Made by a program: the position numbers and the translations under genes. Positions 31,036-31,195 of a DNA stretch of 64,000 bases are shown piece by piece. Position 1 is the first letter of the stretch; each line of letters opens with the position of its first letter. The notes under the pieces are model-generated. The model saw nothing but the letters and a program-made list of their open reading frames with translations, had not been told where the DNA came from and did no database searches. Location of the stretch: the NCBI RefSeq assembly GCF_055900595.2, contig NZ_CM148325.1; one strand, 5' to 3'.

Positions 31036-31195
31036 CCATCAACGAAAAAGCCCACATCTGTGGGCTTTCATATCACCAAGAGCCGCGGCTCCTTTGCGTA
31101 TCCTTTTATGTCTCCTCACCGTCTGGTCGGTGTCTTGCTGAGACTTCTAACTTCCTGTTTTTGTTGGTGTTGTCCTTGCACCGTCCAATCATGAT

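What the first reader, a model, noticed from the sequence alone, without database searches (positions are those of the whole stretch)
31036..31195. tmRNA 3' end abuts the autotransporter gene directly; no integrase or prophage at ssrA
The tmRNA 3' CCA end is followed, on its transcribed strand, by about 125 bp and then a hairpin (AAAGCCCACAGATGTGGGCTTTTT) about 25 bp past the convergent autotransporter stop codon. There is no integrase or phage gene. In K-12 the CP4-57 prophage lies between ssrA and ypjA, as I recall, so this looks like the unoccupied or cured configuration, and the spacer may carry the ancestral attachment-site core.
Basis: partly seen in the sequence, partly recalled or inferred. 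Interest (0 to 1): 0.4.

Follow-up and report, generated by a model that had tools for sequence, protein, structure and literature searches.

The report
Empty phage-integration site at tmRNA gene
This is the ordinary unoccupied form of a well-known phage and island integration hotspot, the 3' end of the tmRNA gene ssrA, and the 160-base gap before the next gene holds the tmRNA transcript's conserved folded tail and its terminator.

Summary
The tmRNA gene lies at 31196-31557 (-). The YpjA/EhaD autotransporter ORF ends at 31035 (+). The 160 bp between them contain a GC-rich hairpin (31047-31068) followed by a T-run on the ssrA strand.

Compared with K-12, the window lacks exactly the 22,015-bp CP4-57 prophage. 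It has one copy of the 15-16-nt core (31195-31210) that K-12 carries at both junctions. No integrase, phage gene or second ssrA 3' fragment occurs in the 64 kb.

About 26-28% of 5,426 complete E. coli genomes share this contiguous arrangement, so it is common.

- The attachment core lies inside the tmRNA 3' end, not in the spacer.
- The ssrA 3' end is intact (CGCCAGCTCCACCA). K-12-type CP4-57 excision leaves a one-base deletion, so a K-12-type cured site is unlikely.

The spacer is the ssrA 3' trailer plus intrinsic terminator. It is a conserved, covariation-supported folded element. ssrA-targeting temperate phages (LLS, phiNP-like and related prophages) carry homologues beside their attP and supply them on integration. 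From memory only, Williams (2003) already noted conserved terminator sequences at these sites. The finding is ordinary and of low interest.

The parts
31196..31557 (-). ssrA, the tmRNA gene, full length with an intact 3' end ...CGCCAGCTCCACCA
   Evidence: ARAGORN; Rfam RF00023, 291 bits, model positions 1-374; 98.6% identical to K-12 ssrA and its flank.
31196..31243 (.). Crossover zone (attB) used by ssrA-targeting integrases. 31196-31210 is the core duplicated around CP4-57 in K-12. Other elements duplicate about 6, 14, 23 or 45-48 nt from the same 3' end.
   Evidence: K-12 junction sequences. The blastn matches of the two K-12 junctions overlap on 31195-31210. attR matches in E. coli genomes end at probe positions 262, 270, 279 and 304. 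Only one copy is found in the window.
31069..31195 (-). 3' trailer of the ssrA primary transcript, a conserved folded element. In window coordinates the helices are 31198-31194/31189-31185 (which includes the CCA end), 31182-31177/31171-31166, 31144-31140/31114-31110, 31132-31128/31121-31117 and 31092-31088/31083-31079.
   Evidence: Alignment A2 of 99 distinct homologues. 95.6% of cells are paired against 34-45% when partners are slid. There are 121 double-sided changes against 47 +/- 5 in shuffles, with 0 of 500 shuffles reaching the observed value. G.U pairs favour the ssrA-sense strand. No Rfam family matches.
31045..31068 (-). Intrinsic terminator of ssrA: stem AAAGCCCAC/GTGGGCTTT, loop AGAT, five T on the - strand. 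On the + strand an A-run precedes it and only TTT follows, so it is at most a weak terminator for ypjA.
   Evidence: Sequence. Helix 6 shows GC to AU compensation in 17 sequences. The consensus scan did not list it, probably because its stem extension consumes three of the T residues (my reading).
26233..31035 (+). Convergent autotransporter adhesin gene ypjA/ehaD. The ORF is taken from the first GTG, and the true start may lie downstream.
   Evidence: ORF list; autotransporter beta-barrel and AIDA/Ag43-type repeats; RefSeq annotation in matching genomes.
31572..31601 (-). Promoter-like site for ssrA (TGGTCA, 18-nt spacer, TATACT, with TG extension), 15 nt upstream of the mature 5' end
   Evidence: Consensus scan. 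This is a pattern match only.
31772..32254 (-). smpB, the conserved upstream partner of ssrA
   Evidence: NCBIfam NF003843, 2.4e-66.

Best explanation
The 160-bp gap is the unoccupied, undamaged attB configuration of the ssrA integration hotspot. RNA polymerase starts at the ssrA promoter (about 31565) and transcribes the 362-nt tmRNA and a 127-nt folded trailer. It stops at the intrinsic terminator at 31045-31068, giving a precursor of roughly 520 nt. That precursor is then trimmed to the CCA end, as known for K-12 tmRNA. Processing by RNase P at the 5' end, and by an endonuclease plus RNase T/PH at the 3' end, is inferred from the K-12 literature and was not tested here. The last 6-48 nt of the gene (31196-31243) are the crossover sites for several families of tyrosine integrases, and in this genome none has inserted. 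Elements that do insert replace the 3' end of the gene and bring their own trailer and terminator. One phage group brings a homologue of this very trailer. In such genomes the resident trailer is displaced to the far end of the element, next to ypjA, as in K-12.
For: The window is collinear with K-12 on both sides and lacks L001 1366-23380 (CP4-57). The two junction matches overlap on 31195-31210. There is a single copy of the 24-nt ssrA end in 64 kb, and no copy of the 15-mer with fewer than 3 mismatches elsewhere. No integrase or phage ORF is present. The same contiguous arrangement occurs in 1529 of 5426 genomes with a 351-bp probe and in 1396 of 5426 with a 6-kb probe. The 3' end is intact, whereas K-12 attR carries the one-base deletion that excision transfers to ssrA (PMC10107115). 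The trailer lies next to full-length ssrA in E. albertii, E. whittamii, Lelliottia, Enterobacter, Klebsiella and Citrobacter. Phage LLS carries the trailer homologue directly beside its annotated attP and a 39-nt tmRNA pseudogene. Prophages at ssrA in strains EC43 and AH20K059 place their own trailer copy next to ssrA. Covariation supports the helices and the terminator.
Against: Termination and processing were not measured. The consensus terminator scan did not flag the hairpin. A clean excision by an integrase that does not damage the site would leave the same sequence, so 'never occupied' cannot be proven. The resident trailer is only 88% identical to that of E. coli strain 3385, although the flanking 12 kb are 96.7% identical. 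It is 92-94.5% identical to two prophage-supplied copies. Its history is therefore probably not simple vertical descent.
Confidence: 0.85

Rival explanations
1. The site is cured: an island or prophage once sat here and excised precisely, restoring attB.
For: Integrase-mediated excision regenerates attB. Elements with undamaged distal copies exist, for example the P2-type elements with CGCCAGCTCCACCA in Table 1 of PMC10107115. The window trailer is 92-94.5% identical to two prophage-supplied copies.
Against: A K-12-type (P4-integrase) occupant would leave deltaU357 or a larger deletion, and the window has none. About a quarter of E. coli genomes share the empty arrangement, which vertical inheritance of an empty site explains more simply.
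Confidence: 0.1
2. The site is a decayed prophage. Under this reading the spacer is the attP-side arm of an old LLS/phiNP-type phage that integrated at ssrA, and everything else was later deleted up to the ypjA stop codon.
For: The spacer matches phage LLS (87% over 156 nt), Ayreon and phiNP. It also matches a circular 43.7-kb phage-like replicon (84%). Exact matches occur in only 17 of about 100,000 species representatives, a patchy spread. Trailer alleles within E. coli differ more than the flanks do.
Against: No phage gene, integrase fragment or distal ssrA fragment remains. The same allele sits on the chromosomal side of attR in K-12 and in many other occupied genomes. A homologous trailer abuts glaH in strain 3385 and has a similar left flank in E. 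whittamii. It was therefore resident before these insertions. The direction of transfer, phage to host or host to phage, is undetermined.
Confidence: 0.15
3. The trailer is a functional RNA in its own right, either a maturation signal for tmRNA or a stable regulatory fragment released from the precursor. Phages would conserve it for that reason.
For: Four helices show covariation or G.U substitutions. A 16-nt stretch is invariant in nine sequences spanning host chromosomes and phages. The first helix pairs the CCA end with trailer bases. An A-rich single-stranded stretch and a terminator with a U-tail resemble Hfq-dependent 3'-derived RNAs (my inference). Phages Ayreon and CT01 keep the element although their adjacent sequence is not, or is no longer, a good ssrA fragment.
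Against: There are no expression data. No Rfam family matches. K-12 makes functional tmRNA with the unrelated CP4-57 trailer, so this trailer is not required. The 99 sequences were all selected to contain a 27-nt pattern, which inflates apparent conservation.
Confidence: 0.2

Closest known systems
E. coli K-12 ssrA / CP4-57 / ypjA locus
   Same: Same genes in the same order (smpB, ssrA, ypjA). The flanks are 94-98% identical. The trailer body next to ypjA is 96% identical, with an identical terminator.
   Different: K-12 has the 22-kb CP4-57 between ssrA and the trailer. It also has a second, damaged core copy (TGGTGG-GCTGGCGG), and its ssrA uses the CP4-57-supplied trailer and terminator. The window has none of these.
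ssrA as an integration hotspot with conserved terminator sequences at the att sites (Williams 2003, J Bacteriol 185:1059, 'Traffic at the tmRNA gene'). The paper's content is recalled from memory, because it is not held in the library. It is cited in PMC10107115.
   Same: Integration occurs in the tRNA-like 3' end. Several integrase families use it, and distal copies are routinely damaged (Table 1 of PMC10107115). As I recall, a limited set of conserved sequences downstream of ssrA in each enterobacterial element serves as the terminator.
   Different: I could not check whether the trailer family described here is one of the paper's sets. The helix-level covariation count is mine.
attP region of Escherichia phage LLS (PQ299149.1)
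   Same: It carries a trailer homologue (87%) with a terminator hairpin. This is followed by a 39-nt tmRNA pseudogene and the annotated attP, in the same order and orientation as the trailer and ssrA end in the window.
   Different: In the phage it is followed by integrase and excisionase genes rather than by the body of ssrA.
3' external transcribed spacers of tRNA operons that act as regulatory RNAs (for example 3'ETS-leuZ; from general knowledge)
   Same: Both are a trailer released from a stable-RNA precursor and ending in an intrinsic terminator.
   Different: No evidence of stability, of Hfq binding or of targets exists here. This is an analogy for the novel reading only.

Membership tests
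tmRNA gene (ssrA) | Match to the tmRNA covariance model above the curated threshold, over the full length | tested here: met
   RF00023, 291.3 bits against a gathering score of 47, model positions 1-374.
tmRNA gene (ssrA) | Tag-peptide reading frame and a tRNA-like 3' end ending in CCA | tested here: met
   ANDENYALAA**. The 3' end is GCTCCACCA.
Unoccupied attB of an integrase target | A single copy of the core, with one flank matching the attL side and the other matching the attR side of an occupied genome | tested here: met
   K-12 L001 1-1365 matches window 32558-31195. L001 23381-27572 matches window 31210-27030. The overlap is 31195-31210.
Unoccupied attB of an integrase target | No integrase or element genes between the flanks | tested here: met
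   The gap is 160 bp. The neighbours are the autotransporter and ssrA.
Unoccupied attB of an integrase target | Functional recombination with a cognate attP and integrase | not testable with these tools
   Requires an integration assay.
K-12-type cured site (after CP4-57 excision) | ssrA 3' end carrying the one-base deletion CGCCAGC-CCACCA | tested here: not met
   The window has CGCCAGCTCCACCA. The deletion is seen in K-12 attR and reported after excision (PMC10107115).
Decayed prophage or island | Partial att duplication, an integrase pseudogene or phage genes | tested here: not met
   No second copy of the ssrA end is found. There are no such ORFs, and single-base indels among homologues rule out coding in the spacer. 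The spacer does resemble a phage attP arm.
Intrinsic (Rho-independent) terminator | GC-rich stem-loop immediately followed by a U-run on the transcribed strand | tested here: met
   A 6-bp GC-rich stem extended by 3 A-U pairs, a 4-nt loop and five U. Pairing is kept by compensation. The pattern scan did not list it.
Intrinsic (Rho-independent) terminator | Transcripts end at the U-run in vivo | not testable with these tools
   Needs 3'-end mapping.
Any described RNA family for the trailer | Match to an Rfam model | tested here: not met
   Within 31036-31195 there are only weak, sub-threshold hits up to E = 10, and they overlap only the terminator end of the spacer. The tmRNA hit itself lies outside.

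The most novel reading that the evidence does not exclude
The 127-nt ssrA trailer is a functional structured RNA that has not been described as an RNA family. It could be a maturation signal that presents the CCA end for processing, or a stable regulatory or sponge fragment derived from the 3' external spacer. ssrA-targeting phages would copy it so that integration does not disturb it. Alleles would then be exchanged between phages and chromosomes.
Probability: 0.2. Interest if true: 0.5.

Novelty: already known. Interest (0 to 1): 0.15.

Why it matters
It matters little as a discovery. ssrA is a textbook integration hotspot, and about a quarter of complete E. coli genomes have this empty arrangement. 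The locus is useful as a clean reference attB. It shows the undamaged tmRNA 3' end and the resident trailer and terminator, which K-12 lacks at ssrA because CP4-57 supplies its own. The one point worth following up is that the trailer is a conserved folded element, shared between enterobacterial chromosomes and phage attP regions. That could bear on how tmRNA maturation is preserved when elements integrate.

Tried and rejected
- Coding potential in the spacer. The mechanical ORFs (31060-31194 on +, and a 28-codon ATG frame on -) are not conserved. Strain 3385 has an early stop in the - frame, and homologues differ by single-base indels. Rejected.
- Rfam at E up to 10 gave only sub-threshold noise over the spacer.
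- The terminator scan did not list the hairpin. I read it directly from the sequence instead.
- Integrase arm-type repeats. CACCGTC occurs twice in the trailer, but the second copy varies among homologues and lies inside a covarying helix. Not pursued.
- RNAalifold on the raw 99-sequence alignment gave a poor consensus on both strands. I therefore specified the helices and counted pairs.
- The 15-mer core gave 9 hits with up to 3 mismatches, against 1.5 expected. The other eight all have exactly 3 mismatches, and the 24-mer is unique. The nearest (19663-19677) is on the opposite strand, inside DNA shared with strain 3385. I take the excess to be oligomer bias of coding DNA (my inference).
- Williams 2003 could not be opened by PMC id or PubMed id.
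- A literature search for an sRNA downstream of ssrA found nothing relevant.

Full report
**1. The observation**

ARAGORN and Rfam agree on a full-length tmRNA gene at 31196-31557 on the - strand, with tag peptide ANDENYALAA (RF00023, 291 bits). The long + strand ORF 26233-31035 ends with an autotransporter beta-barrel domain and carries AIDA/Ag43-type repeats. Matching E. coli genomes annotate it as ypjA/ehaD.

On the - strand the gap ends in AAAGCCCACAGATGTGGGCTTTTT. Its parts are a core stem at 31065-31060/31055-31050, the loop AGAT, and five T at 31049-31045. The hairpin lies 127 nt beyond the tmRNA 3' end. The spacer folds better than shuffles (z = -2.9).

**2.

In K-12 (locus L001) the order is smpB, ssrA, intA ... 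ypjF (CP4-57), then ypjA. A blastn comparison gave two matches:
- L001 1-1365 matches window 32558-31195 at 98.6%.
- L001 23381-27572 matches window 31210-27030 at 94.6%.

The window therefore lacks L001 1366-23380, which is 22,015 bp. The two matches overlap only on 31195-31210.

The junction sequences show why. At the ssrA side K-12 has the full end TGGTGGAGCTGGCGGGAGTTGAAC followed by prophage DNA. At the ypjA side it has the same spacer as the window, followed by TGGTGG-GCTGGCGG and then prophage DNA. The window thus holds one attB-like copy where K-12 has an attL/attR pair.

The 24-nt ssrA end is unique in the 64 kb. No second copy of the 15-mer has fewer than three mismatches. The neighbouring ORFs are YpjCB, the autotransporter, SmpB and RatA, and none is an integrase.

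**3. Where the core is, and whether the site is cured or never occupied**

The duplicated core is the terminal part of the tmRNA gene itself (31196-31210), not the spacer. In other E. coli genomes the distal copy next to the same spacer extends about 6, 14, 23 or 45-48 nt into ssrA. This reflects different elements crossing over at different subsites.

PMC10107115 (Table 1) reports that excision of K-12 CP4-57 leaves ssrA with a one-base deletion (CGCCAGC-CCACCA, deltaU357) that inactivates tmRNA. It also reports that several P4-type elements carry similar damage in their distal copy. I saw that deletion in K-12 attR and in many viral contigs.

The window has the intact CGCCAGCTCCACCA. A K-12-type cured site is therefore excluded. 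A clean excision by an element with an undamaged distal copy cannot be excluded.

**4. How common the arrangement is**

A 351-bp probe spanning the ypjA end, the spacer and the ssrA end is covered at 80% or more in one place in 1529 of 5426 complete E. coli genomes. This is an upper bound, because a few of these are long attR copies. A 6-kb probe gives 1396 of 5426. The empty arrangement is therefore a common polymorphism.

No complete RefSeq E. coli genome exceeds 98.2% identity over those 6 kb. The window comes from E. coli or a very close relative that is not in that set.

**5. What the spacer is**

The spacer is not anonymous DNA. It has homologues in three settings:
- **Temperate phages.** Escherichia phage LLS matches at 87% over 156 nt, and Ayreon and Citrobacter phage phiNP also match. 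A 43.7-kb circular phage-like replicon of strain CT01 matches at 84%.
- **The LLS attP region.** In LLS the homologue lies directly beside a 39-nt 'tmRNA pseudogene' and the annotated attP, followed by integrase and excisionase genes.
- **Occupied ssrA sites.** In strains EC43 and AH20K059, prophages integrated at ssrA place their own copy of this element next to the gene.

A 27-nt pattern from the conserved centre found at least 120 IMG/VR contigs and 17 GTDB species representatives. These include E. albertii, E. whittamii, Citrobacter, Enterobacter, Lelliottia, Leclercia, Pluralibacter and two Klebsiella species. In each case the element lies next to a full ssrA or an ssrA 3' fragment.

In E. 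coli strain 3385 the element abuts glaH instead of ypjA.

**6. Structure of the spacer**

I aligned 99 distinct copies in ssrA sense (A2) and specified six helices. The results were:
- 95.6% of cells pair, against 34-45% when partners are slid by 1-3 columns.
- 121 cells carry a change on both sides, against 47 +/- 5 in shuffles (0 of 500 shuffles reach the observed value) and 10-17 in slid controls.
- Helix 2 shows AU, UA and CG at one pair and GC or AU at another.
- Helix 5 and the terminator each show a compensated pair.
- Helix 3 shows UA or UG. That G.U would be a C.A mismatch on the other strand.

Apart from one doubtful pair, G.U pairs outnumber A.C pairs by about 2 to 1 in ssrA sense. 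The first helix pairs the CCA end with trailer bases.

Two caveats apply. The structure was derived from one of these sequences, and all sequences were selected to contain the 27-nt pattern.

Single-base indels and a non-conserved stop rule out coding. No Rfam family matches.

**7. Mechanism**

Shown here: gene order, the single core, the intact 3' end, the conserved folded trailer and the hairpin with its U-run.

Inferred:
- ssrA is transcribed from the promoter-like site at 31601-31572 through the trailer to the terminator, giving a precursor of about 520 nt. That precursor is then matured as in K-12.
- Integrating elements replace the 3' end and supply a trailer and terminator. One phage group supplies a homologue of the resident trailer.
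- The hairpin may also weakly terminate ypjA, since only TTT follows it on the + strand.

The window trailer is 96% identical to the K-12 copy but only 88% identical to that of strain 3385, although the flanks are 96.7% identical. It is 92-94.5% identical to two prophage-supplied copies. Trailer alleles therefore seem to move between phages and chromosomes, and the direction is unresolved.

**8. Comparison with what is known, and verdict**

ssrA as a hotspot, CP4-57 in K-12 and the damage at distal copies are all established (PMC10107115). A Klebsiella survey reports ssrA occupied in more than half of strains.

From memory, the abstract of Williams 2003 states that one of a limited set of conserved sequences at the attachment site of each enterobacterial element apparently serves as the ssrA terminator. 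I could not open the paper.

The finding is therefore a correct reading of an ordinary, already known configuration, with one wrong detail: the core is not in the spacer. The only residual interest is whether the trailer has a function beyond termination.

Noticed in passing
window 20207-31044: Relative to E. coli strain 3385, the window carries a 10.8-kb block in place of 333 bp. The block holds an alpha-amylase-like gene, tRNA ileY, ypjCB, a recombinase remnant in annotated relatives, and ypjA. Its right boundary (31044/31045) falls exactly at the A-run of the ssrA terminator. In strain 3385 the trailer abuts the glaH upstream region. The ypjA block is thus itself variable DNA.
   Followed up: partly
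window 23155-23230: ARAGORN calls this tRNA-Met (CAT). RefSeq annotates the matching gene in E. coli as tRNA-Ile, which is ileY, where the CAU anticodon is modified to read AUA.
   Followed up: no
window 20343-22595 (-): The 750-aa alpha-amylase-like ORF is intact here and in strain 1190. In K-12 it is annotated as a pseudogene with an internal stop.
   Followed up: no
window 26233-31035: The ypjA ORF is 1600 aa from the first GTG, against 1526 aa in K-12 and 1522 aa in strain 1190. Part of the passenger region is only 89% identical to K-12. The start codon may be over-extended, or the repeat number may differ.
   Followed up: no
window 29500-35500: No complete RefSeq E. coli genome exceeds 98.2% identity over this 6-kb core region. 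The source is an E. coli lineage or close relative not represented among the 5,426 genomes.
   Followed up: no
L004 7998-8200 (CT01 plasmid unnamed3); L006 3957-4160 (phage Ayreon): These two phage genomes keep the trailer body. In CT01 the adjacent sequence is only a degenerate tmRNA-like fragment, and its integrase sits next to a dusA fragment. In Ayreon the adjacent sequence is not ssrA-like at all, and the usual terminator hairpin is missing. It is unexplained why the trailer is kept there.
   Followed up: partly
L116, L120, L131 (E. albertii): In these copies the distal half of the terminator hairpin is replaced by unrelated sequence (...GAACGGCATTG|CACATCTGTGGGC). E. albertii also has a 16-nt deletion in the trailer. 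The terminator is therefore broken in some lineages.
   Followed up: no
window 31185-31198: The conserved helix CCAAU/AUUGG pairs the tmRNA CCA end with trailer bases. It is present in 91-95 of 99 sequences and shows no covariation. It may be a processing determinant.
   Followed up: no
window 49318-62430: Other Rfam hits in the window are the Phe leader (49318-49443), STnc490 (51437-51560), RyfD (54284-54422), and an rRNA operon with tRNA-Glu and StyR-44 (57418-62430).
   Followed up: no
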